A stretch of 20,000 bases of DNA from IMG/VR virus record IMGVR_UViG_3300020215_000002. One strand, written 5' to 3'. Each line of letters begins with the position of its first letter. Position 1 is the first letter of the stretch. The translations under genes were made by a program, and so were the position numbers. The stretch comes from an uncultured virus (IMG/VR IMGVR_UViG_3300020215_000002) (taxonomy: Duplodnaviria; Heunggongvirae; Uroviricota; Caudoviricetes). Positions 2,391 to 16,678 of this stretch are shown piece by piece. The notes beneath the pieces are model-generated. The model was not told where the DNA came from, ran no database searches, and worked only from the letters and a program-made list of their open reading frames with translations.

Positions 2391-2605
2391 AGGCTGGCCC
2401 TCTGCTCGACCGTCATGTCCCGCCGCCGCTTAAGGTCGTCCTGCATGGTGACCTTGAACACCTCCGCCGGCACCCCCAACTCCTCCCTCAAATACCGCTC
2501 CAGCCGTAACAGCGCACGGCCCTGGGCATCACTCCCGATGCCCGGGCCGAAGGTGACAATGACGTGGTGGGGCGGGACGGGGGGGTCGGTGAGGGAGATT
2601 TGCAT
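2387..2605 (-). CDS. Hypothetical protein, 72 aa
   Basis: ATG start, coupled to the next gene; TATAAT about 32 nt upstream. Confidence 0.7.
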   Translation of the reverse strand: MQISLTDPPVPPHHVIVTFGPGIGSDAQGRALLRLERYLREELGVPAEVFKVTMQDDLKRRRDMTVEQRASL

Positions 2606-2637
2606 GCGCGAGTCTGCGCGGGGCGACGAGTGGCGGT

Positions 2638-2643
2638 ATTATA
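2638..2643 (-). promoter_or_regulatory. Possible -10 element (TATAAT) for the small-ORF, methyltransferase and radical SAM operon
   Basis: Perfect TATAAT in very GC-rich DNA, overlapping the stop of the upstream ORF. No clear -35. Confidence 0.4.
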
Positions 2644-2920
2644 CTCGCTCGTCGCTCGGGGTGTCGTCTAATTCCTTGAGGCCGTTGGGGAGTTGGACGG
2701 GCGGGCCGGCGAGGCCGATCCCGTCCACCGGCATCACACCCTCAAAGGTCGCCACCTCGCGCCCGACGGCGACCGCCAACTCGTCGGCCTCGGCCCCGCT
2801 GAACTTCAGCGTCCCGCCGTTGTCCAGGCCGACGACCACGGACCCGTCGGAGGCCCAGACGGCACTACAGACGTGACACAGGTTGACGGTGTACCCGCCG
2901 ATGTGAACGAACGACGCCAT
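2639..2920 (-). CDS. Hypothetical protein, 93 aa (MASFVHIGGYTVNL...)
   Basis: 3' end of the 2639..4213 ORF. ATG at 2920 is preceded by AGGGGG, and composition turns protein-like from this point. Confidence 0.65.
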   Translation of the reverse strand: MASFVHIGGYTVNLCHVCSAVWASDGSVVVGLDNGGTLKFSGAEADELAVAVGREVATFEGVMPVDGIGLAGPPVQLPNGLKELDDTPSDERV

Positions 2921-2937
2921 CACGCCCCCTTGTGGCC

Positions 2938-3363
2938 TCACACCTGCTTCTTCTGATCCCCGATCACCACGTCCAGGGCGATGGCCAGGACCGTGGTCGT
3001 CGTACCGCTGATGAGCGTGGTGCCCGTCATGTCCCCGACGTACCTCACATACCGCTGCGTGCGGGTGAACGCGATGGCCTGGAGGCCGCCGACCCCGGTG
3101 GACAGGCCCGCCAGGGGGGTGAACGTGGCCCCCGGAATATCCACGAAGTTCCCGGCCGTGGTGCTGGGCGACTCCTGCATCTTCCCGGCCAGCCCGACGG
3201 CCACGCCCGTGATGCTCCCGACCACCTGGATGGCGAAGCACCGGGCGTCGCTGGTGATCAGGTCCACGGCCGGGCCGGTCACGTCGGCCGTGACGGCGGC
3301 CGTCGGGCTGGTGATCCCGGGCGCGACGTGGATGACCTTGATGTCGCCGAGTTTGCTGCTCAT
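2938..3363 (-). CDS. Probable capsid decoration/cement protein, paralog 2
   Basis: Downstream of the MCP; T/A/G/V-rich beta protein with AVD...QES...F.D..GA.F...R..RYVR pattern reminiscent of Bbp16-like cement proteins; paralog of 3403..3798. Confidence 0.65.
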   Translation of the reverse strand: MSSKLGDIKVIHVAPGITSPTAAVTADVTGPAVDLITSDARCFAIQVVGSITGVAVGLAGKMQESPSTTAGNFVDIPGATFTPLAGLSTGVGGLQAIAFTRTQRYVRYVGDMTGTTLISGTTTTVLAIALDVVIGDQKKQV

Positions 3364-3402
3364 GGTGGCCCGGGTGAGGTCGCCGTCTGGCTCGTCTGGC
3401 TC

Positions 3403-3798
3403 TCAATACTGCTTCTTCTGCCCGCCGATGAGGACGCTCAGGGCGACCGCGCTGGTGGTCCCGGCGATGTCCCCGACGTACCGGACGAACCGCTGGGTGC
3501 GCTGGAAGTTGAGGACCTGGATGCCCCCGACCCCGGTGGTACTCGTGATGGTCGTGAACACGGCCCCGGCCACGTCCGTGAAGGACGCCGCGGTCGTACT
3601 CGGGGACTCCTGGACCTTCCCGACGAACGTCAACTCGGTCCCGGCCACCGTGCCGACCACCTGGATGGCAAAGCAGTTGTTGTCGCACGTCAGCATGTCC
3701 ACGGCGGCGGCCGTGATGTCCGTGGACACCGCGATGGTCGGGTTGGTGTTCCCGGCCGCCAGGTGGAGGACCTTGATGTCGTTGAGTTTGCTGGACAT
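3403..3798 (-). CDS. Probable capsid decoration/cement protein, paralog 1
   Basis: Immediately after the MCP. Start placed at MSSKL (3798) by alignment to the paralog; shared CFAIQVVG, QESPSTTA, GVGG.Q, RTQR.VRYVGD and QKKQ. Confidence 0.65.
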   Translation of the reverse strand: MSSKLNDIKVLHLAAGNTNPTIAVSTDITAAAVDMLTCDNNCFAIQVVGTVAGTELTFVGKVQESPSTTAASFTDVAGAVFTTITSTTGVGGIQVLNFQRTQRFVRYVGDIAGTTSAVALSVLIGGQKKQY

Positions 3799-3849
3799 TG
3801 AACTCTCGGCTCCGGGGGAGGACAACAGGGGCCCTGCGGGGCCGAAGGC

Positions 3850-5295
3850 TCACGCGACGTTGATGGCATCCGCGAACACGAAGCTGCTCGCGTGCCGGGG
3901 GCCGGCGTCGATGTGCTGGATGCACCGGAGCCGGGTCTGGTCGTTGGTCATCTGGGTGTCCCCGACGTTGCTGCTCAGGAACTCCAGGACCCCGAACCGG
4001 GCCGTCACCCAGTCCGGGAAGTGGCCCAGAATGACGTAGGTCCGGGACCCGTTGTCGCGGGTCCGGGACACCTGGGTGGACCGGACGACGGGCGTCCCGT
4101 CGAGCTGGTACTGTTGCCGCTCCTGGAGGCTCCGCCACACGCTGGCCAGGTACGGGCCCTCGTTGTCCCCGGCCGTGACGGCGGCGGCCCGCCGGTTCCG
4201 GATCTTGGCCCACAACTGCCGGGCCATCACCCAGGCCGTCGGCTCGCCCGCCGTGTCCGGCAGGATGGACTCCATTTCGGCCGCGTCACTGATCTGGAAC
4301 AGGTTGGAAGTGACGGTGTAGGCCAGCAGGGGGTCCGTCCCGGTGCTCCAGGACGCCGCCGAGGGGTAGGTGATGAGGCCCTTGATCTGGGTCCCGCCGG
4401 TGCCCTCCAGCATCGCCAGGTCGGCCTTGAGCGCCGCCACCTTGGCCATGTCGCCCCGGACCATCGCCTCGGCGGTGATGGACCCGAACCGGATCAGCTC
4501 GTTGTTCAGGTCCACCAGGACGCCCAGCTTCTTGGCCTGCAAGTCCAGGTACCCGGTGGCGGGGGTGGACTCCGTGATCGTGGCCCCCTCGCCGACCCAG
4601 TAGGCCGTGGTCACGTTGGTCAGCTTGGGGTACTGCATCCGGCCGTTGGCGGGCAGGCCGACCTCGGAGGCCCCGGCCCGGGCGAACACCTCCAGGTTCC
4701 GCTGGATGTCCACCAGCTCCATCAGGGTCGGGAACCCGACCAGGACGCCGCCGGTGTTCTCGTCCACGGTCCCCAGGTCCTTCTGCCGCAGGCCCATCTT
4801 GCGGCCGATCCAGGCCGCCTCCAGCGGGTCCACCTGATCCGCGTTGGCCACCATCTTCAGCTTGAGTTCGGCGACGGTCCGCTGCTCGGCCGAGGACCCC
4901 TGGGGCAAACACCTCGTGTCGTAGGGGATGACCATCGACCGGCCGCCCTGATTCGGGGTCGGCCGCCAGCCGTGGTCGTGGTAGCTGGCCTTGAGCTTCT
5001 CGTGGACGTCCAACTCGTACTTGACCTTCTCGCGGTCCACGAAGCCCGCCATGTAGCCGGCGGCCCGGAGGACGCTGTACCCCTCGGAGTCGCCCGGCAG
5101 TCGCCCGATCTGGGCGTACACCCCGTTCGGGTTGACGCCCGCGGGATACACGGCACCGGCGTGCTTCTCCTTGAACTCGGCGAGTTCCCGCCGCTGGATC
5201 TTCTGCTCCGCCTGGACGTCGGCGACGCCCTTCTTGACCTCGGCGACGAGTTCGAGGACTTCCGCGGCGGCGGACTTACCGGCGAGCGTGCTCAT
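3850..5295 (-). CDS. HK97-family major capsid protein with N-terminal delta/scaffold region
   Basis: Coiled-coil N-terminus; QKDLGTVDENTGGVLV mature-start motif; AYWVGEG; L.AKKLGVLV.LNNEL; ML.GTG...IKG; GHF; DQT..R. Position fits the head module. Confidence 0.95.
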   Translation of the reverse strand: MSTLAGKSAAAEVLELVAEVKKGVADVQAEQKIQRRELAEFKEKHAGAVYPAGVNPNGVYAQIGRLPGDSEGYSVLRAAGYMAGFVDREKVKYELDVHEKLKASYHDHGWRPTPNQGGRSMVIPYDTRCLPQGSSAEQRTVAELKLKMVANADQVDPLEAAWIGRKMGLRQKDLGTVDENTGGVLVGFPTLMELVDIQRNLEVFARAGASEVGLPANGRMQYPKLTNVTTAYWVGEGATITESTPATGYLDLQAKKLGVLVDLNNELIRFGSITAEAMVRGDMAKVAALKADLAMLEGTGGTQIKGLITYPSAASWSTGTDPLLAYTVTSNLFQISDAAEMESILPDTAGEPTAWVMARQLWAKIRNRRAAAVTAGDNEGPYLASVWRSLQERQQYQLDGTPVVRSTQVSRTRDNGSRTYVILGHFPDWVTARFGVLEFLSSNVGDTQMTNDQTRLRCIQHIDAGPRHASSFVFADAINVA

Positions 5296-5300
5296 ATCGG

Positions 5301-5344
5301 TGGACCCAATGGGGATGCGGCAGTCCGCAAGCTACGTGGGTCCA
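5301..5344 (-). promoter_or_regulatory. Structured 5' leader (nested stem-loop) just upstream of the MCP start codon
   Basis: TGGACCCA (5301-5308) is the reverse complement of TGGGTCCA (5337-5344); inner hairpin TGCGG-cagt-CCGCA at 5316-5329; ends 5 nt before the ATG. Confidence 0.55.
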
Positions 5345-5394
5345 TTAGGCGGGCGGGGTGGGGCGGGGGGAAAGTGGGGCGGGCGGCGGGCTTG

Positions 5395-7005
5395 TCAAGT
5401 CCCCGCGCGGGATTTCTGGATAAAGCCGGGAAGGGCGAACCGCAGGGCCTTGCCGAACACCTCGTCCAGGAGGTCGTTCGGCCGCAGCTCGGTCCGGCCC
5501 GTGCGCGGGCGGGGCTTTGCCTGCTCCGGCTCGGCGAACGCCGCGTCCAGGTCCGGGTTGTGCCGGGGGTCGGAGGGCGGCGTGCCCTTCGGGGCCGGCT
5601 TGGGCTTCGCCTCGGCCTTCGGCTTCCCGGCTACCGTCGGCAGGCCGAAGGCGTCGGTGGACTCCCCCGACTCCTTGCGGGCCTGCGCTTCCTCTGAGAA
5701 GTGCTGGGCGTGGAGGCGGCTGGCCAGGCTGAGGCTGAGCTTGAATTCCCGCTGCTGGCGGGCGTTCAACGGCCGCCCGGCCTGGGCCTGCCGGCGCAGG
5801 ATGTTGGCCCGGCCCATCGCCCAGATCAGGTGCTCGCGGGCCTCGGTTTCGTTGGCGGGGCTACCCAGGTTCGGCGGGGGATTACCGGTGCCGGGCATCG
5901 ACGGGCGGGCGCGCCCTGGTAGGGACGGCGGCGGGGCCACCCGCGTGAACCGGCGGTCGGCGTTGCGGAACTTTGGGGCGCGGGCCGGCTTCGGGGTGTC
6001 GGCCGAAAGCACGCTGGCCCGCGGCTTTTTGGAGCCCCCGCCACGGGCGAATTGGCCGCGGTTCTGCGCGTTTCCTCTCGGGTGCTTGGACTCGTCAAAG
6101 TGGCCGGCCAGGACGGCGGCGGCCCCGACCGCCCGCGCGACCCCGCCCAGCAGGCCGCCGCGGCGGGCCTTGGTGACGAGGGCCGGGAGGGCGAACCCAA
6201 GGGCCTTCTCCCTCGCCGCCAGCCCCGCGTGCCGCTCGAACGCCGTCACGATCCGGTCGGCGGCGTCGTAGGCGCGGCTGTCGTCCTCGTCCTCCGACAC
6301 CTCCAGGTGCTCGCCGATGGCCTCGGCGGCGTACTGGCGGGCGTCGAACCCGTCCCAGTTGCCCGGCGCCTCGGTTAGCACCTTGGCGGCCGGCCCGAGG
6401 AGCGATTCCCGGACGTTGCGGAGCAGGTCGGACCGGGCCGTGTCGCCGCCGGGCCGCAGGTCTTCTTCGGCGAACTCCAGCCAGCCGACGTCCAGGGCCT
6501 TGCGGTACTCGTCGGTGAGGACTTCTTCCGCGGCGGCAGCGGCGTCGATGGGAATGCCGGAAGCGATATCCGGGTGGGCCTCCCAGAACGCCGCGAAGGT
6601 AGAGCGGACGTGGTTGTCGATGTGCTCCGCGACTTCCTCTTTCAGCCGCGGGAAGTCCAGCGCCTCATACGCGGCGGCCTCCGTCGGGGCCTCGATGGCC
6701 GCGATGTACCGCTCCGCGACCAGTGGGTACAGGTCCCGCACGAGGGGCTTGTCGGCCATCACCCGTTTGGCGTGGGCCAGTTGCTCCCGCACGAGGTCGG
6801 CCCGCTCCTTCCGGCCGCGGGCCCGGGCGGCGTTGGCCCGCTCCCGGAGGGATGGTTTTTCGGAGGGGGTGCGCCCGGCCGGCCCCGCGGGCTCGCCGTG
6901 CCGGCCGGGCGCCGACGAGAACTTGCCCGCGTCCCGCGGGTGCTTGGTGGGGTCGAACGGGACGGACTTGGTGACGATGGGGGATAGGCGGAATGCCACG
7001 GCCAA
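5395..7005 (-). CDS. Head-associated protein, 536 aa, with two F-D-x-x-KHPR...G-x-F motifs and repeated KALxFALP..K(S/A) motifs
   Basis: Lies between protease and MCP; FDPTKHPRDAGKF and FDESKHPRGNAQNRGQF; acidic helical middle and basic Pro-rich C-terminal half. Confidence 0.7.
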   Translation of the reverse strand: MAVAFRLSPIVTKSVPFDPTKHPRDAGKFSSAPGRHGEPAGPAGRTPSEKPSLRERANAARARGRKERADLVREQLAHAKRVMADKPLVRDLYPLVAERYIAAIEAPTEAAAYEALDFPRLKEEVAEHIDNHVRSTFAAFWEAHPDIASGIPIDAAAAAEEVLTDEYRKALDVGWLEFAEEDLRPGGDTARSDLLRNVRESLLGPAAKVLTEAPGNWDGFDARQYAAEAIGEHLEVSEDEDDSRAYDAADRIVTAFERHAGLAAREKALGFALPALVTKARRGGLLGGVARAVGAAAVLAGHFDESKHPRGNAQNRGQFARGGGSKKPRASVLSADTPKPARAPKFRNADRRFTRVAPPPSLPGRARPSMPGTGNPPPNLGSPANETEAREHLIWAMGRANILRRQAQAGRPLNARQQREFKLSLSLASRLHAQHFSEEAQARKESGESTDAFGLPTVAGKPKAEAKPKPAPKGTPPSDPRHNPDLDAAFAEPEQAKPRPRTGRTELRPNDLLDEVFGKALRFALPGFIQKSRAGT

Positions 7006-7013
7006 CCCTCCCG

Positions 7014-7442
7014 TCAGACCCGGTCCCGCCGCCGGCCCCCGAGGTTGGGGACCGACGACGGGACCGCGGGCCGCGCAACGACTGGGGGCGGCTCCGGGGC
7101 GGGCTGGGCGGCCTCCCGAGGGGCCTCCGGGACGGGCTTCAGGTCCGGTCCCGGAAAATTACCGGGACCGGACGGCCGGGACGGTTCGGCGACCTTAACC
7201 GGCGTCTGCGAAACCGCTTGCGGCACGACCGCAGGCGGCGCCGGCTCGGACGGCTTTTGGCTGCCAATTTGGAGCAAGTGCCGTTGGCACTCCGAGGCGT
7301 GTTTGCGCTTGTCGTCCACGGCTTGGCCGGCGCGAGTCACTTCGGATTGAAGGACGGCCAGCTTCGCCTCCGCGTCTTTCAACGCCTGAACGGCGGCGGC
7401 ATAACTCCGGGCGGCGGTCAGGATCGCGGCGTCGGTGGCCAT
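7014..7442 (-). CDS. Hypothetical protein with N-terminal coiled coil and Pro-rich tail, 142 aa
   Basis: ATG 1 nt after the protease stop; fills the gap in the operon. Confidence 0.7.
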   Translation of the reverse strand: MATDAAILTAARSYAAAVQALKDAEAKLAVLQSEVTRAGQAVDDKRKHASECQRHLLQIGSQKPSEPAPPAVVPQAVSQTPVKVAEPSRPSGPGNFPGPDLKPVPEAPREAAQPAPEPPPVVARPAVPSSVPNLGGRRRDRV

Positions 7443-7443
7443 C

Positions 7444-8721
7444 CTACACCCCCCGCACGGCGTCGAGGACGGCCTTGGCGCCCGCCATCTCGCTCTTGAC
7501 CCGCTCCCAGTCGGCCTCCTCGTCCGGCTGGTCGGGCGGCAGCCGGACGAACCGGACGGCCTCCAGGTCGTTGGCCATCTTCTTGCTGACGCACCGGGTC
7601 CGGTGGGGGAGGAGTTGGTCCCGGGCCTGGGTCCGGAGGTACTGGACGGCCTTCTCGATAACCGGGGCGTCGTCCTCGGAGAGGGCCTTCTTGTACCGCT
7701 TCAGGTAGTCGTCCCAGTCTCGCAACGCCTTCTGCCGCCACTCGAACATCATCGTCTCGTTGATGTCGTCGCCGGGGTTGCCCGGCACGGCCGGCTGGTC
7801 CGGGTAGTCCTGGGCGTGGTTTAGGTGGCCCTTCTGGCAGACTTCCAGCGCCTTGCCGAAGAGCGCAATACACCGCCGGGCGTCCGCCTTGGTCCGCTCG
7901 TTCTCCTGGACGCCGTGGAGTTCCCTCGCGAGTCCAAGCATCTTGAGGGAGGCCCCGGCCATCGCGTGGTAGAACTGGGTGGAGGGCGTCAGGGCGACGG
8001 CTTCCGTCTCCAGCGGCTCGTCGTCCAGCAGGTCGTCCGGGGGGGCGGGCGGGTCGAGGTCGCCGAGGTCGTCCAGCCCGTCGTCGGCCTTCGCCTTCAC
8101 GAACCCGCCCGTGACCTGCGCCTTCTTGGCCGGGAGGTACGGGACCAGCATGTCCTTCAGTTCCGGCACCAGGGACTCGCCCCCGAAGCCTTTCTCCACC
8201 GCGACCACGAGCGCGTCGGGGTTCATCCCGATGGGACAATGGCTGATCTCGATGAGCCGCCACTTGTCGTAAATGAACGCCGGGTGGCCGTCGTGGGCCT
8301 TGACCTTGTGGACGCTCCCGGGCACCGTCTGGAAGCCGGGCGAGACGCCGCGGAGGGCCCCGGACTCCACCAGCCGGAAGGACTGGAGGGCCAGCTTGCT
8401 GGACTGGTCGAAGTAGTTGACCGCCTCGATCCGGTCCTCGAAGGACTTGAGCGTATAGTGGCCGTCCGGGTCCTGGGCCCGCGCGATCCCCGGCCAGTCC
8501 TTCCGGTGGTTCAGGAGGACGATGGGGTTCCGCTTGTGGTCGCGGGTGTCGCAGCCCTTGGCGATCAGGATGTCCCGCTCGCGGTCCATCGTCTCCGTGG
8601 AGACGATGACCCGCACGGCCATTTTGGCGCCGTCCGCCTTGATGTCGGCGTCCGGGACCAGATAGGCGAGGGACTCGTCATCGAGCTTCTTGACGCGCCA
8701 GGGAGTCGTATCGATCTGCAT
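7444..8721 (-). CDS. HK97-type prohead (maturation) protease with long C-terminal extension
   Basis: STETMDRERD, NPIVLLNH (catalytic His), GVSPGF (catalytic Ser), EISHCPIGMNPDA; about 250 aa helical/acidic extension. Confidence 0.9.
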   Translation of the reverse strand: MQIDTTPWRVKKLDDESLAYLVPDADIKADGAKMAVRVIVSTETMDRERDILIAKGCDTRDHKRNPIVLLNHRKDWPGIARAQDPDGHYTLKSFEDRIEAVNYFDQSSKLALQSFRLVESGALRGVSPGFQTVPGSVHKVKAHDGHPAFIYDKWRLIEISHCPIGMNPDALVVAVEKGFGGESLVPELKDMLVPYLPAKKAQVTGGFVKAKADDGLDDLGDLDPPAPPDDLLDDEPLETEAVALTPSTQFYHAMAGASLKMLGLARELHGVQENERTKADARRCIALFGKALEVCQKGHLNHAQDYPDQPAVPGNPGDDINETMMFEWRQKALRDWDDYLKRYKKALSEDDAPVIEKAVQYLRTQARDQLLPHRTRCVSKKMANDLEAVRFVRLPPDQPDEEADWERVKSEMAGAKAVLDAVRGV

Positions 8722-8784
8722 GGGTCGCGGCCTCAGCGGGTGTGCTACCCGTTGTCGGGCCGGGACGGGGCGGGGGGGAATGGG

Positions 8785-9456
8785 TTAGACGGTTGCCAGC
8801 GTGTCCTCGAAGCATCGCACCACGTCCTCGAAGAGTGGGTCCGCCTCTCCGGTACTCACCGGGGCAGCCGGCCGACTGTTGTGGCTGCGGTCGTCGGGGG
8901 CAAGAAACTGCTCGGCCAGCCGGTAAAGGTCATACTCCCTGGACAGTTTGAGCATCGCCTCGACGATAATTCGCCGAGCCCTTTCCTTGGTCACCCCGAC
9001 GGATCGCCCGACTTCTTCTAGCGTGCATTCGTCGGGGTGGCCGATCCCGAACCGCATCTCCAGACATTGCCTCTGTCGCTTGTCGATGAACCGCAACACC
9101 GAATCCAGCAGGTCCCGCAGTCCCATCTTGTCGCCGGACGGAGAGGGCGCCGGATCTGGGAGCCGCTCCAGCGGGTAGTCAAGCGTGCATTTGGGGTTTT
9201 TGCTGTACCACTGATTGGATTGGTGCTCAGACTTCAAAGCGCATTCGATGCACTTCCAAGCGTAGGTTGAGAACCGCCCGCGACCAATCTTGTAGTGCCG
9301 TGCGGCGTGGTAGAGGCCGGAGAGGGCGGCGGCCTCGTAATCAGACGAGTGGGCGCCCCGCCGCTTGCAAAACCGGTGCAGCACCTTGTACGCCAACCGC
9401 TGGTTGGCCTCGAACCGCTCTCGCGGACTGATGTGACCAGCGCCGTGATTGCTCAT
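8785..9456 (-). CDS. Sigma-70-family RNA polymerase sigma factor (regions 2 and 4)
   Basis: N.RLAYKV...ALSGLYHAA..Y...RGRFSTYAW.CI (region 2); RQRQCLEMRFGI...TLEEVGRSVGVTKERARRI (region 4 HTH). Start at ATG 9456 or GTG 9471. Confidence 0.88.
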   Translation of the reverse strand: MSNHGAGHISPRERFEANQRLAYKVLHRFCKRRGAHSSDYEAAALSGLYHAARHYKIGRGRFSTYAWKCIECALKSEHQSNQWYSKNPKCTLDYPLERLPDPAPSPSGDKMGLRDLLDSVLRFIDKRQRQCLEMRFGIGHPDECTLEEVGRSVGVTKERARRIIVEAMLKLSREYDLYRLAEQFLAPDDRSHNSRPAAPVSTGEADPLFEDVVRCFEDTLATV

Positions 9457-9458
9457 GG

Positions 9459-9470
9459 GCCATTTTACCA
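9459..9470 (-). promoter_or_regulatory. Extended -10 (TGG-TAAAAT) 5 nt before the sigma ATG, possible leaderless promoter
   Basis: Minus strand reads GTGGTAAAATGGCCCATG; the same GGTARAATGGC motif occurs at 10324-10334 and 12097-12107. Confidence 0.5.
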
Positions 9471-9480
9471 CCGGCCCCGT

Positions 9481-10269
9481 TCAGATGAACTCCCGGCCCC
9501 GCTTCGGCGGCTCCGGGGTGGCCGGCTTGTCGGGTTCGGGGGGCTTCTCGTCGGGCTTGATCCACTGCCGCGGAACGGCCCAGAACTCACCTGTCGCCGG
9601 GGTCATCCCTAGGAACGCCCGCGCAGCGTTAATGTCGATCTTCCCTTGCGAGAACAGGTGGGCCGCCACCTTCGCGGCCACCATCTCCTCCTCCGGGGTC
9701 GGCACCCCCCGCCGCTTGGCGAGTTCGGCGTAGGTCGCAGAGAAGGTGGCTCCTCCGACGGTGACGTAGGTGAATTCCCTGTTGGGCCGGGCGACCGGGC
9801 CAGCCTCGGGAATCGCTTCCGGCTGGTTGCTGGCGAGCACCCGCACCACCTCTTTGCGGGCAGCCTCCAGCGTCAGGCCGCAGGCCGCCAGCGCCCGGGC
9901 CGCCGCCCCCTCGGGCTCGCGGAGCAGGCCGAGTAGCAGGTGTTCGGTCCCGATGTAGTTGTGATTGAGGTCCCGCGCCTCGTGCAACGCCCACTCGACT
10001 ACCTTCTTCGTCCGCGGCGTGTGGGGGAGCTTGCCGAGCACGACCTGATCGGAGCAGACGCCGGGCGGGACCAGTTTTTCCAATTCGGCCCGGACTTGGA
10101 CAAGGGACACGCCAAGGTTTCTGAGGACGCTCCCCGAGACGCCCGACCCCTCCTTGACCAGCCCCACGAGGAGGTGTTCCGTCCCGATGTACTCGTGGCC
10201 GACCCGCTGGGCCTCCTGGTTGGCCAGCTGCATCACCTTCCGGGCCCGGTCCGTGAATCGCTCGTACAT
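9481..10269 (-). CDS. Stand-alone ClpC N-terminal (Clp repeat) domain protein with a unique C-terminal region; no AAA+ domain
   Basis: MYERFTDRARKVMQLANQEAQR..HEYIGTEHLL.GLVKEGSGV...LP.TPR.KKV.E....EAR.LNHNYIGTEHLLLGLLRE is a double Clp_N repeat; about 115 further residues end in RGREFI. Confidence 0.92.
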   Translation of the reverse strand: MYERFTDRARKVMQLANQEAQRVGHEYIGTEHLLVGLVKEGSGVSGSVLRNLGVSLVQVRAELEKLVPPGVCSDQVVLGKLPHTPRTKKVVEWALHEARDLNHNYIGTEHLLLGLLREPEGAAARALAACGLTLEAARKEVVRVLASNQPEAIPEAGPVARPNREFTYVTVGGATFSATYAELAKRRGVPTPEEEMVAAKVAAHLFSQGKIDINAARAFLGMTPATGEFWAVPRQWIKPDEKPPEPDKPATPEPPKRGREFI

Positions 10270-10277
10270 GGGGTGTC

Positions 10278-11882
10278 TCAGTGGGTGCCGTTCGCGCTGA
10301 ACCCGTTGAGCCGGAACGCCTTCGCCATTCTACCAGGGGCTTCCGCCTGAATGGGGTTCGCAATCCCCGTGTCCGTGTCGGTCGGCATCTCGTCCCCCTC
10401 GGTGGCGAACGCCGCGTAGGGGTCCTCGGCATCACCAAGACCCGCCAGGCCGGGGTCAGGCGAGCCCACCCCCGGCACCATCGACTGAAGCAGCACTTGG
10501 GGAATATCGGCAATCGGGTCTTCGAGGGGCGGCTCGTCAATGGCGGCCCGGTACTCGTTGGCGCTCACCACGCCCAACTGGAACGCCTGAGCGACCTTGT
10601 CCATCTTCTGCAACCGAAGCGTCGGGTCGTCCATGCTCTTGGCGGTCAGCTCGATCCGGAAGTCGTCCCCCCAGTGCTTCTGCCAGTGATGAGTGAAGGT
10701 GTCGCCGAACAGGACGAGGTCGGGCTGGACGGAGAACTCGACCGTGCACTTGGCCCCGACCGCCGCCTCGGAGTAGCTGCCGGCGCCGGCGAGACCCGCC
10801 ACGACGGGGGAAACCCCCTGGATGGCCAGGACGTTCTCCCGGTTCTGCACCCGCCCGTTCACGTAGTCCAACTCGCCCGGCCCGCTCATCATCTGCTGGA
10901 CGGTCAGGCCCAGCATGGCCAGCACCTTGCCCGCGTTGTTCGACCCCGCCTTGAACGTCTCGATTTGGGTCATCAACTGGTCGATCATCTCTTGCGTCAC
11001 AACCTGCCCATTTCTCGGGTCGAGGTTGAAGACGAGCGACGGCTTCACGGAGTTCACAAAGGACGCCCACGTCGCCGTGTCGGTTTGCTCCATGATGTCG
11101 ATGATTTGACTGCAAGCGCTGAGCGGACTCGTCCCCTCGCCGGGATACAAGGGGTTCGGCCACTTGACGTCGATCATCTGCTCGTAGGGGATCATCCACG
11201 TCGAGGTGGACGGGGAGGCGACCCCCTGCGTGAAGGTGTTGAAGACGGGGGTTACTTGGTACCAGCCGAGTGGGGAAGCAGGAGTGGGGGCCATCGGCCG
11301 CACCCACCCCTTCGGGATGACCCACAGGTGCTCGGGCTCGCCGAACTGGTTGGGCACCTCCCAGACGTAGCAGCCGCCCGTCAGCCGCAACTGGCACTCG
11401 AACTGGTAGCGGAACACGGTGCCGCTGGTCAGAGGGTTGGGGCGGGCCAGGAGCCGGGCCGCCCGGTGGTCGGGGATCGGCGTTTCCCGCTCGGCGGCCG
11501 TGTCCGGCGTGTGGGACTTCCGGCGGCACAGCCGCAGGTAGTGGCCCAGTTCGGCCAGCCGCCGCGACCGCCCGAACCGCATCGCCTTGTCGAAGTAGAC
11601 GTCTTGCTGTGCCTGCTCGCTGCGGTCGTAGATGTTGACCGTCGCCTGCGCCACCTGCTGGGCCACCTTGTGGACGCCGACGTAGATCCACGAGACGAAG
11701 TGCTTGAGCTCCTCCAGATGGTCGCTGATCCACCAGCCGGGCGTGGCCCCGCTCAGCCACGCCTGGTTGAGGACCGGGGGCGGCGGGCTGAAGCGCTGGC
11801 CGCCGGGAAAGGCTTTCGCCTTGGCCCTGGGGGTCGCGGGCTTGCGCTTCGGGGCAGGTTTCTTTGGCTTCTGGCGCGGCAT
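10278..11882 (-). CDS. HK97-family phage portal protein
   Basis: WIYVGVHKVAQQVA, LL.RPNP..SG..F, L.LTGGCY, G.SPLSA, G..NAGK, GVSP...G, GVVSANEYR; between terminase and protease. Confidence 0.93.
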   Translation of the reverse strand: MPRQKPKKPAPKRKPATPRAKAKAFPGGQRFSPPPPVLNQAWLSGATPGWWISDHLEELKHFVSWIYVGVHKVAQQVAQATVNIYDRSEQAQQDVYFDKAMRFGRSRRLAELGHYLRLCRRKSHTPDTAAERETPIPDHRAARLLARPNPLTSGTVFRYQFECQLRLTGGCYVWEVPNQFGEPEHLWVIPKGWVRPMAPTPASPLGWYQVTPVFNTFTQGVASPSTSTWMIPYEQMIDVKWPNPLYPGEGTSPLSACSQIIDIMEQTDTATWASFVNSVKPSLVFNLDPRNGQVVTQEMIDQLMTQIETFKAGSNNAGKVLAMLGLTVQQMMSGPGELDYVNGRVQNRENVLAIQGVSPVVAGLAGAGSYSEAAVGAKCTVEFSVQPDLVLFGDTFTHHWQKHWGDDFRIELTAKSMDDPTLRLQKMDKVAQAFQLGVVSANEYRAAIDEPPLEDPIADIPQVLLQSMVPGVGSPDPGLAGLGDAEDPYAAFATEGDEMPTDTDTGIANPIQAEAPGRMAKAFRLNGFSANGTH

Positions 11883-11898
11883 GTCGCCAGTAGAACGG

Positions 11899-12093
11899 TC
11901 AGGCGGGGCGGCTGCGGGCCTCCACGATGACCGGGGTGTCGGCCGGCGTGATAACGACCTCGCCCTCGGCCACTATCTTCAGCACGGCCGTCAGCCCCCA
12001 TTCCTCGTGGCCGACGAAGTTGTAGCCATCCTTGACGGCCACCTCGCACAGCGGGACCGCCATCGACACGGGGATCGTGATTGGCTCGCTCAT
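11899..12093 (-). CDS. Hypothetical protein, 64 aa
   Basis: Fills the TerL-portal gap; TAGAAT lies 6 nt upstream of the ATG. Confidence 0.6.
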   Translation of the reverse strand: MSEPITIPVSMAVPLCEVAVKDGYNFVGHEEWGLTAVLKIVAEGEVVITPADTPVIVEARSRPA

Positions 12094-12102
12094 GCCGCCA
12101 TT

Positions 12103-13734
12103 CTACCGCGTGTTCACGACCCTGAAGAACAGGTTTACCCCCGCCTGCTTCAGCCACCCCACGACGTAGCGTAAAGCGTCAGCGCGGTGGTAGGTCTCCT
12201 TGTCCATCAGGTCATTCAGCACGTTCCCCGCCTCATCGACCTCGCGGCTGTAGGTGTTCAGGTCGTCAATGAGTCTGGCGCAGTTGGCGGTGACGAACAG
12301 TTGGTCCGTCTGGATCGCGGCGTACACCCGCCCGATGCCCACCTCCACGTCCGGCTGGTCGGGGGGATGCACCGGGTACCCGTCCACGGCGAACTGGGTC
12401 CGCCAGTTGCCTTCGGATTTGGAGCCCCCGACGGCCGCCACGGGCAGCCCCCGCTCCCCGTGCTTCAACGCCCCAATGTGGTCCTTGATCTTCCGCGACT
12501 CCTCCGGGGCGTACTCCTTGTACACACACAGGCGGCCGGTCTTCTGGCCCTTGTCGTCTAACTCTTCGGCGATGAAGACCGCGGCGAAATTCGGACTGCC
12601 GAAATCGAGTCCCACGTACCGCGGCCACTTGGGGTCGGGCTCGAACGCGGGCACGACATGCCCCACGACCCCGTCCTCGTTCACCCCCTGCCAGCCCTTC
12701 CAGCAGTCGTAGACGGCCCCGGCGGGCCGGGTGAACCGGCCGCGGTACTTCATGTTGAACTTCCAGCCCGGCATGGTGAGCTTGGCCTGCTCCCACTCCT
12801 CGCGGCTGAACCGGGGGTTGTCGATGGACTCGAAGTGGACCATCTCGAACCCGGCGTCGGCCGGCATCAGTGGGAGGGGCGGTTCGCCCGCGGCCGCCAG
12901 CTCGGCGTTCTGCCTCCGCGTCTTCTGGTTCCGGGCCGCCCGGTCGTGGATCTCGGTCTTGACCCAGTTGAAGACGTAGGGGCGCGTGGTCAGGAGCATC
13001 CGGCCGCCGGTCGCCCCCAGCCGCCCGCGGATCTCCTCGTAGCTCTCCGTCTTGAACCGGGCCTGGCCGGGTTCGTCCAGCCAGGCCGCCTTCCCGGTGA
13101 ACGACGCCAGCGAGTCGGGGTTGTCGGCGTGGCCGAAGATGATCCGGGACGGGTCGTGGGGGTTGTACGTCGGCCACTTGGCCTGGGGCCACAACCTGCG
13201 GTGCCCGCCTTCACTCACCCGGAACTCGCCCATCGCCCCGCCGATGACCTCCCCGAGCCCGAGTATCCCGCCGAGGTGCGACGAGATGGCCCGCATGGGG
13301 TACTTGTCGAGCAGCTTGAACGACGGGGCCGCGGCCAGGTAATTCCCCGGCCCGCACTTCTGCATCTCGCGGACCAGCCACCAGTCCCCGACGGACGACT
13401 TGCCCGACTGCCACCCGGCCAGGATGAGGAGGACGCGGTAGGTGACGTCGTGAATGTCCTCGTAGTGAAACGCCTCGAACTGGTGCTCGTGGCAGTGGAG
13501 GACGGGGGTGCCGGCGGGGACGATCACGCCGTCCCATTCGGTATCGCTCTCGTGAACGGTGACGAAGTCGCCGGACGGGTCAGGCTGGCGGGTCGGGTGG
13601 AAGAGGGCCGGGGGACCGATAAGGCCAGCCTCAACCCGGCGATTGGCCAGCTCCTCCTCCATCGCCAGCAAGCTTTGATTCAACCGCAGCGATTCGAGCG
13701 CGAGTCTCCGCGATCCGCCGCACAAGTTCGTCAT
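12103..13734 (-). CDS. Terminase large subunit
   Basis: Walker A AGWQSGKS, Walker B AAWLDEP, motif III LTTRP, RNase H-like GLDFG and H..DALRY. Start uncertain (ATG 13734 or 13662); overlaps the TerS 3' end. Confidence 0.93.
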   Translation of the reverse strand: MTNLCGGSRRLALESLRLNQSLLAMEEELANRRVEAGLIGPPALFHPTRQPDPSGDFVTVHESDTEWDGVIVPAGTPVLHCHEHQFEAFHYEDIHDVTYRVLLILAGWQSGKSSVGDWWLVREMQKCGPGNYLAAAPSFKLLDKYPMRAISSHLGGILGLGEVIGGAMGEFRVSEGGHRRLWPQAKWPTYNPHDPSRIIFGHADNPDSLASFTGKAAWLDEPGQARFKTESYEEIRGRLGATGGRMLLTTRPYVFNWVKTEIHDRAARNQKTRRQNAELAAAGEPPLPLMPADAGFEMVHFESIDNPRFSREEWEQAKLTMPGWKFNMKYRGRFTRPAGAVYDCWKGWQGVNEDGVVGHVVPAFEPDPKWPRYVGLDFGSPNFAAVFIAEELDDKGQKTGRLCVYKEYAPEESRKIKDHIGALKHGERGLPVAAVGGSKSEGNWRTQFAVDGYPVHPPDQPDVEVGIGRVYAAIQTDQLFVTANCARLIDDLNTYSREVDEAGNVLNDLMDKETYHRADALRYVVGWLKQAGVNLFFRVVNTR

Positions 13735-14122
13735 CGGGGACGTCCCGCAGTTCAATCGGCCCGCCCTCCGGGCCGGAGTGCTCGGCCGCAAGGCGGTCTT
13801 TGAACTTGCCCGGCCGACGAGCCTTGAGCATGAATATCAACAGAGTGTCGCTGTACCGGCGGACCGACCCGCACTCCTGCCCGCGGTAAAAGACTGGTTC
13901 GTCCACCCCGTCCCGCCCGCGTCGCACCGCCTCGTCCTCCAGGGCGTCCGTCCCCAGTTCAACGGCCTCATCCCACGCCTTGGCGAAGTCCTCGTCGCCC
14001 TCCCGCCAGAAGTACACCGTCCGCCGCGAGATCCCCGCCGCTTTCGCGGACTCCGTGACGTTCGCGGTCTCGGACAGGTATTCCAAGAAGAAGGCTCGCC
14101 GTTCGTCGTCGCTTGATTCCAT
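13631..14122 (-). CDS. Terminase small subunit
   Basis: FL..L....NVT..A.AAGISR.TVY.WR..D..FA..WDEA...G.D.LE.EA.RR...GV..PVFY.G...G....YSD.LL.F.LK...P.K, then EHSGP.GGPI; directly upstream of TerL. Confidence 0.9.
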   Translation of the reverse strand: MESSDDERRAFFLEYLSETANVTESAKAAGISRRTVYFWREGDEDFAKAWDEAVELGTDALEDEAVRRGRDGVDEPVFYRGQECGSVRRYSDTLLIFMLKARRPGKFKDRLAAEHSGPEGGPIELRDVPDDELVRRIAETRARIAAVESKLAGDGGGAGQSPG

Positions 14123-15414: not shown

Positions 15415-15617
15415 TCGGGCCACCCGTGGTCGTTGCTTTGCGTGCAGAACGGCGCGACGGACCCGTCGAACAACTCGCGGACGATGATGGAGTTGTCGTC
15501 CTGGTCCGGGTTCGCGGACCGGAATAAAGCAGTCGCTTCCCGCTCGTCCGCCGCCCACGCATAGGCCCGGACGTAGCTCTCGCCGACGTAGCCGGTGGTG
15601 ATCTCGAACAGCTTCAC
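15411..15617 (-). CDS. Hypothetical protein, 68 aa (VKLFEITTGYVGESYVR...)
   Basis: GTG overlaps the ParB-like stop (GTGA); 3' end of the 15411..16406 ORF. Confidence 0.65.
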   Translation of the reverse strand: MKLFEITTGYVGESYVRAYAWAADEREATALFRSANPDQDDNSIIVRELFDGSVAPFCTQSNDHGWPD

Positions 15618-16678
15618 CGGTGCCCCTTCGGGACCATGTCCCTCGTCACCCACCCCTGCTTGCACGCCTTGCACCCCTCGCCCCCACACGCCGAACAGAC
15701 GGCGTAAGGCGTGGCCGCGACCAACCCCTCGCGGGCCCCTTCGAGCATCGAAACCCCCTCGTCCACGCAACTCGACACGGCCGCCGGCAGGTGCGGGCAC
15801 TCGCGGAGCTTGCCGACCGCCTTCGCCAGATCGCGCAGGGGGCCGGACAGGATGCCGTCCACGACCGCCACGCACTCCCCGATCCGCCGGGTGTACTCGT
15901 TGAACGGCCTGACGACGGGTTTCGGGAGCGGGACGCCCAGGCGGTCCCGGCTCTGCTCGTCCCGGAGCCGTTCGTACTCGGCCACGGCCTTGTCCGTGTC
16001 CCGTGTGGTCGTGAGGCGCTCGGCAACCGGGGCGTACCGGGCGTCCTTGTCGGCAGCGGCGAACACCTGCTTCCTGGCCCGGAACTCCTGGTACACGGGG
16101 TCCACCGGCTGGCCGTCCTGGCTGACCAGCTCGGCCAGGTCCACGTACCGGTCGGGCTCCCGCTGGGCCGCCTCCAGCACCGCCTGGGCCTTCACCAGCG
16201 TCCGCCCGCTCATCCCCACCGCCTCGCCGATCTTGTCGCGGGCGTCCCCCCGCCGGGCCGGCTCCGCCGCCGCCGCCCCCCCGACCCGGCCCTCGCCTTT
16301 CTTGGCCTGGGCCGCGGCCTTCCGCTTCGCGGCCTCCGGGTTCTCTAACTCTTCCAGCCGCCTCGCCAGTTCCAACTGCTCCTGCCGGGTCAACTGCACG
16401 CGGCACCCGGGGCAGTTCTCGTCGCGCTCCGCCCGCAACGCCTGCACGGCGTCGTCAAAGGCGGGGCTGACATAAGCCCGGATGTGTGACCACCCCAGGC
16501 GGTGGGCCGCCTCCAGCCGCCGCCGGCCGCCGACCACCTCGTACCGGGCGTTCAGGACGACCTCCTGGAGCTGGCCGAGGGCCCGCATCGACTCGACCAG
16601 GACGCCCAGGTCGGCGTCGGTGCCGCGGACGGGGCCGGACCGGCGGATGCGGGACAGGGGGACGGGTTCGGATTTCAT
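15614..16678 (-). CDS. ParB/Srx N-terminal domain protein with HTH and C-terminal CxxC...CxxC
   Basis: VPLSRI...L..S....GQLQ.V.....Y.VV.G.RRL.A...LGW...EN..R..LT..E; RD.IGE.VGMSGRT (HTH); CSACGGEGCKAC. Confidence 0.85.
   Translation of the reverse strand: MKSEPVPLSRIRRSGPVRGTDADLGVLVESMRALGQLQEVVLNARYEVVGGRRRLEAAHRLGWSHIRAYVSPAFDDAVQALRAERDENCPGCRVQLTRQEQLELARRLEELENPEAAKRKAAAQAKKGEGRVGGAAAAEPARRGDARDKIGEAVGMSGRTLVKAQAVLEAAQREPDRYVDLAELVSQDGQPVDPVYQEFRARKQVFAAADKDARYAPVAERLTTTRDTDKAVAEYERLRDEQSRDRLGVPLPKPVVRPFNEYTRRIGECVAVVDGILSGPLRDLAKAVGKLRECPHLPAAVSSCVDEGVSMLEGAREGLVAATPYAVCSACGGEGCKACKQGWVTRDMVPKGHR

What the first reader, a model, noticed from the sequence alone, without database searches (positions are those of the whole stretch)
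9481..10269. Host-like ClpC N-terminal domain without ATPase, encoded between portal and prohead protease: possible protease decoy or adaptor
Seen: residues 1-145 are a double Clp_N repeat retaining the FTDRA/GTEH and HTPRT/GTEH motifs, with no AAA+ module. Established: the equivalent residues form the phospho-arginine binding pockets of Bacillus ClpC, and stand-alone N-domain proteins (actinobacterial ClpC2) compete with ClpC1 for substrates. Inference: the phage captured its host ClpC N-domain to shield phage proteins from McsB/ClpCP degradation, sequester adaptors or act during head assembly. Its position in the slot usually taken by head morphogenesis proteins is unusual.
Basis: partly seen in the sequence, partly recalled or inferred. 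Interest (0 to 1): 0.8.

Follow-up and report, generated by a model that had tools for sequence, protein, structure and literature searches.

The report
Phage copy of ClpC's docking head
A soil phage, probably of planctomycete bacteria, carries an intact gene for the substrate-docking head of the host's ClpC protein-degradation motor without the motor, most likely a decoy that blunts host proteolysis; such genes turn out to be common in phages but none has been tested.

Summary
Window 9481-10269 (minus strand) is an intact 262-aa gene. Residues 1-146 are a ClpC-type double Clp_N domain (Pfam E 6e-34; model TM 0.92 to the M. tuberculosis ClpC1 N-domain) with both FTDRA/GTEH-type pocket motifs and no AAA+ module. 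Residues 147-262 have no real relative among 1.84 billion representative proteins.

A divergent sigma-70-family gene (8785-9471) lies between this gene and the prohead protease. A sibling phage (portal 74%, capsid 87% identical) runs portal, a 56-aa ORF, then protease, so Clp_N plus sigma is a two-gene accessory insert. The domain is also not a recent capture: it is 64-68% identical to planctomycete ClpC heads, which are 84-100% identical to each other.

Motor-less Clp_N genes are frequent in viral contigs: 66 of the 80 best loci, with 48 unrelated tail types. They keep the pocket residues (48 of 58) and sit next to the portal more often than expected (5 of 48 lineages against about 1.5).

Planctomycetes encode McsB, and Gemmata algarum also has a McsA-like neighbour.

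My best reading is a decoy for ClpC-head ligands (confidence 0.4). No function was tested. Novelty: a new variant of a known kind. Interest: moderate.

The parts
9481..10269 (-). Whole gene: motor-less ClpC-type N-domain protein, 262 aa plus stop
   Evidence: ORF list and translation; Pfam Clp_N x2 E 6.4e-34; phrog_35667 E 6.3e-42
9832..10269 (-). Residues 1-146: double Clp_N repeat (eight-helix ClpC N-domain fold)
   Evidence: phmmer E 1.2e-42 to the ClpC1 N-domain; model pLDDT 88-97 outside the 71-80 linker (62); Foldseek TM 0.92, rmsd 1.4 A to 3wdd, TM 0.87 to pArg-bound 5hbn
10243..10257 (-). FTDRA (residues 5-9): first pocket motif; T6 and R8 equal S. aureus ClpC T7 and R9
   Evidence: Translation; roles of T7/R9 read in passages of PMC12583610; T6 kept in 54 and R8 in 51 of 58 distinct viral copies, both 43 of 43 in host ClpC
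10174..10185 (-). GTEH (residues 29-32); E31 equals ClpC E32
   Evidence: E32A/E106A as pocket mutants in PMC12583610; E31 kept in 54 of 58 viral copies
10009..10023 (-). HTPRT (residues 83-87): second pocket motif; K88, just after it, equals ClpC K85
   Evidence: K85 anchor point in PMC12583610; T84 kept in 47 (S in 7) and K88 in 50 of 58 viral copies
9940..9951 (-). GTEH (residues 107-110); E109 equals ClpC E106
   Evidence: E109 kept in 55 of 58 viral copies
9484..9831 (-). Residues 147-262: orphan tail. Low-confidence beta-hairpin (168-177) and three helices (179-219), then a Pro/Glu/Lys-rich end
   Evidence: HMMER against 1.84e9 representatives found only itself and three long repetitive proteins; pLDDT 31-61; no usable Atlas hit; no paralogue in the held pieces of this phage
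8785..9471 (-). Co-inserted sigma-70-family factor (regions 2 and 4), 228 aa, starting 9 nt after the Clp_N stop
   Evidence: Pfam r2/r4; phrog_351 E 1.7e-21; TIGR02937 59 bits, above its cut-off; best non-self relative only E 3.6e-10, 28% identity
8722..10277 (-). Two-gene accessory insert (Clp_N plus sigma with flanking spacers) relative to the sibling phage
   Evidence: In L108 the portal ends at 6483 and the protease starts at 6709, with only a 56-aa ORF between; no Clp_N in that 19.7-kb record. GC3 0.87 and 0.77 here against 0.90-0.96 in flanking head genes
10278..11882 (-). Portal protein, directly upstream (8-nt gap)
   Evidence: PF04860 E 1.7e-33; phrog_12 E 3e-34
7444..8721 (-). Prohead protease (with probable scaffold part), 63 nt downstream of sigma
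   Evidence: phrog_80 'head maturation protease' E 5.3e-11; Pfam S78 only 20.3 bits, just under its cut-off of 21

Best explanation
The gene encodes a phage-borne, motor-less mimic of the N-terminal docking domain of the host's ClpC unfoldase, joined to a lineage-specific tail. It arrived with a sigma-factor gene as a two-gene accessory insert in the head operon and is probably co-transcribed with portal and protease late in infection. Shown: its identity, fold, intactness, retained pocket residues, accessory status, and that it belongs to a large class of such phage genes. Inferred: the free domain binds the ligands that ClpC's own head binds (phospho-arginine-tagged proteins, the McsB/McsA kinase-adaptor or other adaptors, exposed hydrophobic segments). 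Without an ATPase it cannot hand them to ClpP, so it would titrate them away from ClpCP and protect phage proteins made in bulk during assembly. The orphan tail would give location or target specificity.
For: ClpC-type head with no ATPase. Residues equivalent to the published pocket and anchor residues are kept (T6, R8, E31, K88, E109). T6, E31, T84 and E109 are all kept in 48 of 58 distinct viral motor-less copies, as expected if ligand binding is under selection. Divergence from host ClpC is uneven. There are 0 changes among conserved positions in helix 1 (16 residues) and helix 6 (10) and 1 in helix 2 (11), the helices that carry or follow the motifs. Helices 3, 4, 5, 7 and 8 carry 3/9, 4/11, 5/16, 5/8 and 6/14. 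This fits a domain that keeps its pockets but no longer has to pack against an ATPase body. The kinase that makes the ligand is present in 5 of 5 planctomycete genomes tested, and in G. algarum a McsA-like ORF sits beside it. Precedents: mycobacterial ClpC2 binds pArg and titrates ClpC1-directed antibiotics (abstract and sections read; passages). Phage SPO1 Gp53 shows that phages target ClpC's head (abstract). The gene is accessory, being absent from the same place in a sibling phage, as expected of a host-interference gene and not of a core head part. The class is frequent in viral contigs: 66 of the 80 best loci.
Against: No binding or activity was tested. The tail has no relatives and folds at low confidence, so its role is a guess. 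Titrating ligands needs high expression, and I found neither RNA data nor a promoter. The host is inferred only from similarity of the head and from GC. ClpC2, the best-studied stand-alone head, works mainly as a pArg-sensitive repressor, so ligand binding could serve sensing and not sequestration. Planctomycetes themselves hold very many motor-less Clp_N proteins of unknown role, so the host may already tolerate such proteins. Enrichment next to the portal gene hints at a capsid-linked role that a plain cytoplasmic decoy does not explain.
Confidence: 0.4

Rival explanations
1. pArg-sensing regulator, or partner of the co-inserted sigma factor. Like ClpC2, the head would sense phospho-arginine (host proteotoxic stress), and the tail would bind DNA or the neighbouring sigma factor (as anti-sigma, stabiliser, or shield against ClpCP), coupling phage transcription to host state.
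For: The two genes arrived together, are 9 nt apart, and are both absent from the sibling phage. ClpC2 shows that a stand-alone head can be a pArg-released repressor. A Clp_N gene directly followed by a sigma gene recurs in another viral contig, L124. Sigma genes lie 3.5-4 kb away in L004 and L007. The tail has a short helical region (179-219).
Against: No DNA-binding or anti-sigma family matches the tail. In ClpC2 the DNA-binding part lies N-terminal of the head, the reverse of the order here. Direct Clp_N-sigma adjacency was seen in only 2 of 48 lineages. The L124 protein carries an unrelated HD_4 tail.
Confidence: 0.15
2. Capsid- or portal-associated protein. The tail docks on portal or procapsid, so that the head acts at the assembling particle (holding or shielding structural proteins) or is packaged and injected to act at the start of the next infection.
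For: A motor-less Clp_N gene is the direct neighbour of the portal gene in 5 of 48 tail lineages: the window, L118, L140/L141, L149 (=L016) and L177-181. About 1.5 would be expected from random placement (rough Poisson P 0.02). The gene is packed into the head operon with 8-9 nt spacers and no terminator-like site on its own strand in 7300-12300.
Against: The sibling phage builds a closely similar head (capsid 87%, portal 74%, protease 72% identical) without it. Neither Pfam nor PHROGs names that other protein a capsid. The portal call in L177-181 is weak (E 1.8e-6). Being within two genes of portal or terminase is not enriched (9 observed against about 6 expected). Atlas structure matches of the tail to portal clusters are all under TM 0.45 and are not evidence.
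Confidence: 0.15
3. Degradation hijacker. The tail binds a host protein and the head binds McsB or another adaptor, so that the target is routed to ClpCP and destroyed (an adaptor-of-adaptors).
For: The design of a constant head plus hypervariable tail (48 unrelated tail clusters among 66 proteins) is that of a modular targeting device. SPO1 Gp53 shows phages reprogramming ClpCP and not only blocking it.
Against: Nothing I read reports that a free ClpC head delivers cargo to ClpC. Delivery normally needs contact with the ATPase ring or M-domain, which adaptors make and heads do not make in trans. There is no candidate target.
Confidence: 0.1
4. Passenger with no function of its own: a decaying piece of a ClpC-like gene carried along with the sigma gene.
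For: Long private branch (0.36-0.40 changes per site); 32 of 118 conserved columns changed; orphan tail; absent from the sibling phage.
Against: The frame is intact, with a start matching the ClpC consensus start and the first 22 residues identical to it. The pocket residues are kept. GC3 is at coding level. The same architecture persists in dozens of viral lineages, including cultured mycobacteriophages.
Confidence: 0.08

Closest known systems
N-terminal domain of ClpC / ClpC1 (B. subtilis, S. aureus, M. tuberculosis; e.g. PDB 3wdd, 5hbn, 2y1r)
   Same: Same fold and both repeats (E 1e-42; TM 0.92; 48-52% identity). The equivalents of T7, R9, E32, K85 and E106 are kept.
   Different: No D1/D2 ATPase rings or M-domain; a 116-residue unrelated tail instead. 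It cannot unfold anything or dock on ClpP.
Actinobacterial ClpC2 (PDB 8ad9, 9p2p; PMC10030653, PMC13345244)
   Same: A motor-less ClpC-head homologue that binds pArg and head-directed ligands and can titrate them away from ClpC1.
   Different: Much more distant in sequence (E 2e-18 and 2e-13, against 1e-42 for ClpC1 heads). In ClpC2 the head is the C-terminal domain behind a DNA-binding part and only one pArg site is conserved. Here the head is N-terminal and both motif pairs are kept. ClpC2 is chromosomal and autoregulated, not phage-borne.
Plant chloroplast ClpT1/ClpT2 (PDB 4y0b, 4y0c)
   Same: Stand-alone double Clp-N proteins (entry titles).
   Different: Only E 7e-9 and 7e-7, 26-27% identity. 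Their reported role in assembling the ClpP/R core is recalled from memory, not read here. They are eukaryotic organelle proteins.
Phage SPO1 Gp53 (PMC6873191)
   Same: A phage protein that acts on the host ClpCP system through ClpC.
   Different: Described as an adaptor-like activator that binds ClpC (abstract), not a copy of ClpC's own head. I did not compare the sequences.
PHROG 35667 and mycobacteriophage Myrna gp251 / Phabba
   Same: Phage proteins consisting of a ClpC-type head plus a short tail. The profile match is E 6.3e-42. Myrna gp251 is 45.7% identical over residues 1-173.
   Different: Only profile positions 11-159 of 235 match, so the tails are unrelated. Those phages infect actinobacteria and their genes are not in the head module. 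The family is listed as 'unknown function', and the GenBank label 'Clp family protein, ATPase domain' is wrong as to the ATPase.
Planctomycete motor-less multi-Clp_N proteins
   Same: The same phylum-specific head type (for example an identical N-terminal consensus) and no ATPase. 7688 of 8000 scored candidates of 144-459 aa matched at E <= 1e-3.
   Different: Most carry two or more heads in tandem, some with UVR, four-helix-bundle or ClpX zinc-finger parts. This protein has one head and an orphan tail, and it sits in a phage head operon.

Membership tests
ClpC-type N-domain (Pfam Clp_N, PF02861, double repeat) | Two Clp_N repeats above the curated score | tested here: met
   116.3 bits against a cut-off of 20.7, two stretches
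ClpC-type N-domain (Pfam Clp_N, PF02861, double repeat) | Eight-helix pseudo-twofold fold | tested here: met
   Eight helices in the model, pLDDT 88-97 outside the 71-80 linker; TM 0.92, rmsd 1.4 A to 3wdd
ClpC-type N-domain (Pfam Clp_N, PF02861, double repeat) | Pocket residues of both pArg sites (Thr of the F-T-x-R motif and Glu of G-T-E-H, twice) | tested here: met
   T6, E31, T84 and E109 present; residue roles from PMC12583610 passages and PMC13345244 sections
ClpC-type N-domain (Pfam Clp_N, PF02861, double repeat) | Binds phospho-arginine | not testable with these tools
   Needs ITC or MST on purified protein
ClpC / class I Hsp100 unfoldase | Two AAA+ modules and an M-domain after the head | tested here: not met
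   The ORF ends at residue 262; no AAA family hit in Pfam or NCBIfam; the next gene is a sigma factor
Actinobacterial ClpC2 | N-terminal DNA-binding/oligomerising part followed by a C-terminal head; closer to ClpC2 than to ClpC1 heads | tested here: not met
   Domain order reversed; E 2.2e-18 to ClpC2 against 1.2e-42 to the ClpC1 head; architecture from PMC13345244
PHROG 35667 (phage Clp_N proteins, unknown function) | Match to the family profile | tested here: met
   E 6.3e-42, but only profile positions 11-159 of 235; the tail part of the profile is not matched
Anti-sigma factor | A recognisable anti-sigma domain, or shown binding to a sigma factor | tested here: inconclusive
   No such family in Pfam, NCBIfam or PHROGs; binding is not testable with these tools
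Head morphogenesis / minor head protein encoded after the portal (SPP1 gp7 / Mu F kind) | Homology to such a family and conservation in related phages | tested here: not met
   No head-family hit; absent between portal and protease in the sibling phage

The most novel reading that the evidence does not exclude
Motor-less ClpC heads with swappable tails would be a general, so far unrecognised class of phage counter-measure against the phospho-arginine/ClpCP protein-tagging pathway. This would make that pathway an antiviral barrier well beyond Gram-positives. The constant head soaks up pArg marks or McsB, and each tail places it where that phage needs it. In the portal-adjacent lineages, including this one, that place would be the assembling head, or the particle itself so that the protein arrives with the DNA. 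Here the module travels with its own sigma factor as one mobile two-gene unit.
Probability: 0.2. Interest if true: 0.75.

Novelty: new variant of a known kind. Interest (0 to 1): 0.5.

Why it matters
Phages are known to inhibit or reprogramme host proteases, but copying the protease's own substrate-docking head as a decoy has not been described in the papers I could search. The searches 'Clp_N' + 'phage' and 'Clp N-terminal domain' + 'bacteriophage' listed 7 and 1 papers, none on this by title. If the decoy reading is right, three things follow. The phospho-arginine/ClpCP pathway would matter for phage infection in planctomycetes and other diderm phyla. A large database family of 'unknown function' (PHROG 35667, including genes of cultured mycobacteriophages) would get a testable function. 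And the natural variety of heads could serve as probes or inhibitors of ClpC1, a validated antibacterial target. If it is wrong, the gene is still a clean example of a two-gene insert in a head operon.

Tried and rejected
Structure and binding:
- Single-sequence AlphaFold run: useless (mean pLDDT 40). Repeated with an alignment.
- Complex prediction of the sigma factor with the Clp_N protein: no verdict (score 0.00 against a mark of 0.32). This is not evidence either way.
- ESM Atlas search with the tail: no usable hit by features. All structure rows were under TM 0.45, including several portal clusters. Not used as evidence.
- HMMER search of the tail: the three non-self hits are long repetitive proteins with 11-25 matched stretches, which I judged spurious.

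Origin:
- Trees of the heads (329 rows with FastTree; 168 rows with IQ-TREE quick) are unresolved. The window's head falls in no strongly supported clade, so no donor can be named.

Expression:
- The look-up of sequencing runs: two soil-metagenome DNA holders, both possible sources, and no RNA holder listed. I did not lay reads.
- Promoter/terminator scan of 7300-12300: no promoter-like site, and two terminator-like sites on the plus strand only, fewer than in shuffles.

Rest of the phage:
- The window's own assembly is not held. G001 equals window 1-7957 and ends there, so its lack of Clp_N means nothing.
- No ClpP-family gene in the three held fragments. All are 19-24% complete, so this is weak.
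- No paralogue of the tail in those fragments.

Other checks:
- Pfam and PHROGs do not name the 365-aa paralogue of the L114 tail as a capsid protein.
- I considered the gene a core head protein and rejected that because of the sibling phage.
- I considered a fragment of a full-length phage ClpC and rejected that because the frame closes and a sigma gene follows.
Full report
WHAT IS THERE. The finding's coordinates hold one ATG-started ORF of 262 codons on the minus strand, 9481-10269 including the stop; the plus-strand reading is broken by stops. Pfam finds two Clp_N repeats (E 6.4e-34, 116 bits against a cut-off of 20.7) and nothing else. The best solved relatives are the N-terminal domains of M. 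tuberculosis ClpC1 and B. subtilis ClpC (E about 1e-42 over residues 1-146 to 1-161).

A single-sequence AlphaFold run was useless (mean pLDDT 40). A run on a 79-row alignment of heads gave pLDDT 88-97 for residues 1-70 and 81-140. Confidence dips to 62 in the linker between the repeats (71-80) and to 80 at 141-150. Foldseek puts the model on ClpC1 and ClpC heads at target-normalised TM 0.87-0.93. That includes the phospho-arginine-bound B. subtilis structure 5hbn (TM 0.87).

There is no AAA+ module in the ORF or after it.

THE TAIL. Residues 147-262 have no real relative. An exhaustive HMMER scan of 1.84 billion representative proteins returned the protein itself and three very long repetitive proteins with 11-25 matched stretches, which I read as composition artefacts. 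The tail models at pLDDT 31-61 as a beta-hairpin (168-177), three helices (179-219) and a Pro/Glu/Lys-rich end. The ESM Atlas gave no usable hit. No paralogue lies in the roughly 34 kb of this phage that is held, nor in the sibling fragment.

SURROUNDINGS. On the minus strand the order is:
- ParB-like gene (15614-16678)
- small terminase (13631-14122)
- large terminase (12103-13791)
- portal (10278-11882)
- the Clp_N gene (9481-10269)
- a sigma-70-family gene (8785-9471)
- prohead protease (7444-8721)
- two unknown ORFs
- major capsid protein (3850-5295)
- further on, a methyltransferase and a radical-SAM/SPASM gene.

It has regions 2 and 4 (E 8.5e-8 and 6.2e-11) and matches phrog_351 'RNA polymerase sigma factor' at E 1.7e-21. 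It is very divergent: the best non-self relative among 5.8 billion proteins is at E 3.6e-10 and 28% identity.

The spacers are 8 nt (portal to Clp_N), 9 nt (Clp_N to sigma) and 63 nt (sigma to protease). No promoter-like site, and no terminator-like site on the coding strand, was found in 7300-12300. The two genes are therefore probably read with the head operon; that is an inference.

The window is phage DNA. Two IMG/VR fragments are 100% identical to its two halves and both end near position 7950. The protein was seen on a contig of 80,851 bp. The only sequencing runs that hold the stretch are two soil metagenomes.

THE INSERT. A search with the portal protein found one related phage fragment, L108 (19,728-bp record). 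It is collinear with the window: ParB 62%, large terminase 56%, portal 74%, protease 72% and capsid 87% identical. There the portal ends at 6483 and the protease starts at 6709, and between them is only a 56-aa ORF of no known family. The sequence just upstream of the protease start resembles the window's. That record has no Clp_N match at all, but it is only 24% complete.

So Clp_N plus sigma (about 8722-10277) is a two-gene accessory insert, or a loss in the sibling, and not part of the core head machinery. This agrees with their third-position GC: 0.87 and 0.77, against 0.90-0.96 in the flanking head genes.

ORIGIN. The top 61 come from Planctomycetota or from bins whose titles name other taxa, and the other 19 from Chloroflexota. 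Wherever the ORF was complete it had ClpC length, about 820-910 aa.

Forty-three complete planctomycete ClpC heads are 84-100% identical to each other (median 92%). The window's head is only 64-68% identical to any of them and differs at 32 of the 118 columns that are at least 95% conserved in them. It is less like Chloroflexota ClpC (53-57%) and about 50% identical to actinobacterial and Bacillus heads. Its first 22 residues equal the planctomycete consensus.

In both trees (329 rows, FastTree; 168 rows, IQ-TREE quick) it sits on a private branch of 0.36-0.40 changes per site. Planctomycete ClpC heads are its nearest rows (path 0.56-0.60), and it falls in no well-supported clade. The head is thus of planctomycete type, which with 61-74% GC points to a planctomycete host. 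It is not a recent capture, and the donor could be ClpC or one of the many motor-less paralogues of that phylum.

WHERE IT HAS CHANGED. The 32 changed positions are unevenly spread: none in helix 1 (16 residues) or helix 6 (10), and one in helix 2 (11). Against that, helices 3, 4, 5, 7 and 8 carry 3/9, 4/11, 5/16, 5/8 and 6/14. Passages of PMC12583610 name T7 as part of the first pArg site, R9 and R122 as at or near the two pockets, E32/E106 as pocket glutamates and K85 as an anchor to the ATPase. By the alignment offsets these correspond to T6, R8, R125, E31/E109 and K88 here, and all are present. At position 125 the planctomycete ClpC heads have Q (42 of 43). The pattern fits a domain that keeps its ligand sites while the rest drifts, but it is not proof.

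THE CLASS. Motor-less Clp_N genes are common in viruses. A profile-guided scan of IMG/VR found 106 relatives, of which the best 80 were kept:
- 64 complete ORFs under 460 aa (183-384 aa)
- 2 ORFs of 501 aa without an ATPase
- 13 of full ClpC length (817-839 aa)
- 1 cut off by the contig end.

The 66 motor-less proteins have 48 tail types that BLAST cannot connect, 35 of them singletons. I scanned 48 proteins, one for nearly every tail cluster, against Pfam. Only four tails showed a family: HD_4, MazG and DUF2158 (the last in two proteins); the other 44 showed none. T6, E31, T84 and E109 are all kept in 48 of 58 distinct viral heads. GenBank phages hold 24 matching records, none covering 80% of the query. 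The best are mycobacteriophages Myrna (gp251, 45.7% over residues 1-173) and Phabba. PHROGs has the family as phrog_35667, 'unknown function' (E 6.3e-42).

POSITION. I called ORFs crudely, taking the longest non-overlapping ones with a GC3 filter, and scanned the two neighbours on each side against PHROGs. L178-181 were left out as duplicates of L177 and L170 as a duplicate of L169. The earlier Pfam scan added to this.

The portal gene is the direct neighbour in the window and L118 (portal then Clp_N), and in L140/L141, L149 (=L016) and L177-181 (Clp_N then portal; the last portal call is weak, E 1.8e-6). That is 5 of 48 tail lineages. About 1.5 would be expected if genes were placed at random at one gene per kb (rough Poisson P 0.02). 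Being within two genes of portal or terminase is not enriched (9 observed against about 6 expected). Clp_N directly followed by a sigma gene recurs once, in L124.

HOST PATHWAY. PF00217 (the McsB kinase fold) matches at 224-240 bits in 5 of 5 planctomycete genomes tested: Gemmata algarum, a Gemmata MAG, Aquisphaera insulae, Aeoliella sp. and a Planctomycetaceae MAG. Among the 14 control genomes it matched only B. subtilis. The G. algarum protein passes NCBIfam NF002194 'protein arginine kinase' (431.7 bits, cut-off 385). The ORF just upstream of it carries a UVR motif, as McsA does (28.5 bits, cut-off 21.5). Chlamydia is reported to have an mcsAB operon apart from clpC (passages of PMC10128030). 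Its kinship to planctomycetes is from my own knowledge.

MECHANISM. The best-supported reading is a decoy. A free head that still binds what ClpC's head binds, but cannot unfold anything or reach ClpP, would compete with ClpC for pArg-tagged proteins, for the McsB/McsA complex or for other adaptors. That would spare phage proteins during assembly.

Three precedents bear on this. ClpC2 binds pArg at about 5 uM and titrates ClpC1-directed antibiotics, and its authors propose that it may compete for substrates or adaptors (sections 3 and 5 of PMC13345244; passages of PMC10030653). SPO1 Gp53 shows phages acting on ClpC (abstract of PMC6873191).

Every functional step is inferred. I put this reading at 0.4. 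The rivals are a pArg sensor or sigma partner (0.15), a capsid- or portal-associated role (0.15), a degradation hijacker (0.1) and a functionless passenger (0.08). A complex prediction of the protein with the sigma factor gave no verdict and is not counted.

EARLIER NOTES OF THIS SCAN. Two earlier notes concern the same kind of protein on other DNA. One describes a planctomycete protein of four heads and calls such copies common but untested, which agrees. The other describes a 501-aa phage protein, apparently the one in my loci L114/L133, as a head fused to two copies of a capsid domain.

I confirmed that its tail holds two copies (residues 14-108 and 161-265 of the tail) of a segment of a 365-aa protein of the same phage (E 2e-9 and 4e-8). 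Neither PHROGs nor Pfam names that protein, so its capsid identity stays unchecked here.

VERDICT. This is a real, intact, accessory phage gene. It is a new phage-borne variant of the known stand-alone ClpC-head kind, in a family that is frequent but uncharacterised. Interest is moderate (0.5). The idea is testable with simple biochemistry, but nothing here shows function, and the scan has met this class before. I did not consult any paper supplements; bioRxiv supplements are closed, and the residue figures of PMC13345244 (Fig. 1A, S1) could refine the pocket mapping.

Noticed in passing
window 8785-9471 (-): The phage carries a very divergent sigma-70-family factor (regions 2 and 4 only) inside its head operon. 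The best non-self relative is E 3.6e-10 at 28% identity. What it transcribes is unknown.
   Followed up: partly
window 36-2605 (-): Downstream of the head genes lie a radical-SAM/SPASM enzyme (36-1163), a 94-aa ORF, a methyltransferase (1441-2364) and a 72-aa ORF. This could be a peptide- or protein-modification set within a phage.
   Followed up: no
L108 (whole locus) compared with the window: The sibling phage has 56% GC against the window's 61-74%, although capsid, portal and protease are 72-87% identical in protein. That is a large base-composition shift between close relatives.
   Followed up: no
L118:210-3935 and L016:6793-11157: Two portal genes next to Clp_N genes are giant fusions. 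One (1241 aa) ends in a 2'-5' RNA ligase-superfamily domain. The other (1454 aa) carries a PI3/PI4-kinase-like domain.
   Followed up: no
L124:4001-4975, L015:6001-6981, L131:4001-4858: Some viral Clp_N heads are fused to HD_4 (RelA/SpoT-type hydrolase fold) or MazG pyrophosphohydrolase domains. The HD_4 ones sit beside ribose-phosphate pyrophosphokinase genes.
   Followed up: no
L114:4442-5503 and L190:1174-2271: In a roughly 72-105-kb phage, the 355-aa tail of a Clp_N protein is a tandem duplication of a segment of another 365-aa protein of the same phage (E 2e-9 and 4e-8). No family names that protein.
   Followed up: partly
L100:1189-2828 (Gemmata algarum): A McsB equivalog with a UVR-motif (McsA-like) ORF just upstream lies on a different contig from clpC. 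A phospho-arginine system thus seems standard in planctomycetes (5 of 5 genomes tested).
   Followed up: partly
window about 7950: Both public IMG/VR fragments of this phage end at about this position inside the protease gene. This suggests an assembly break point such as a repeat or a coverage change.
   Followed up: no
L002:8920-9546: One viral contig has a ClpP-family protease gene 2.3 kb downstream of its motor-less Clp_N gene (PF00574 E 4.3e-24).
   Followed up: no
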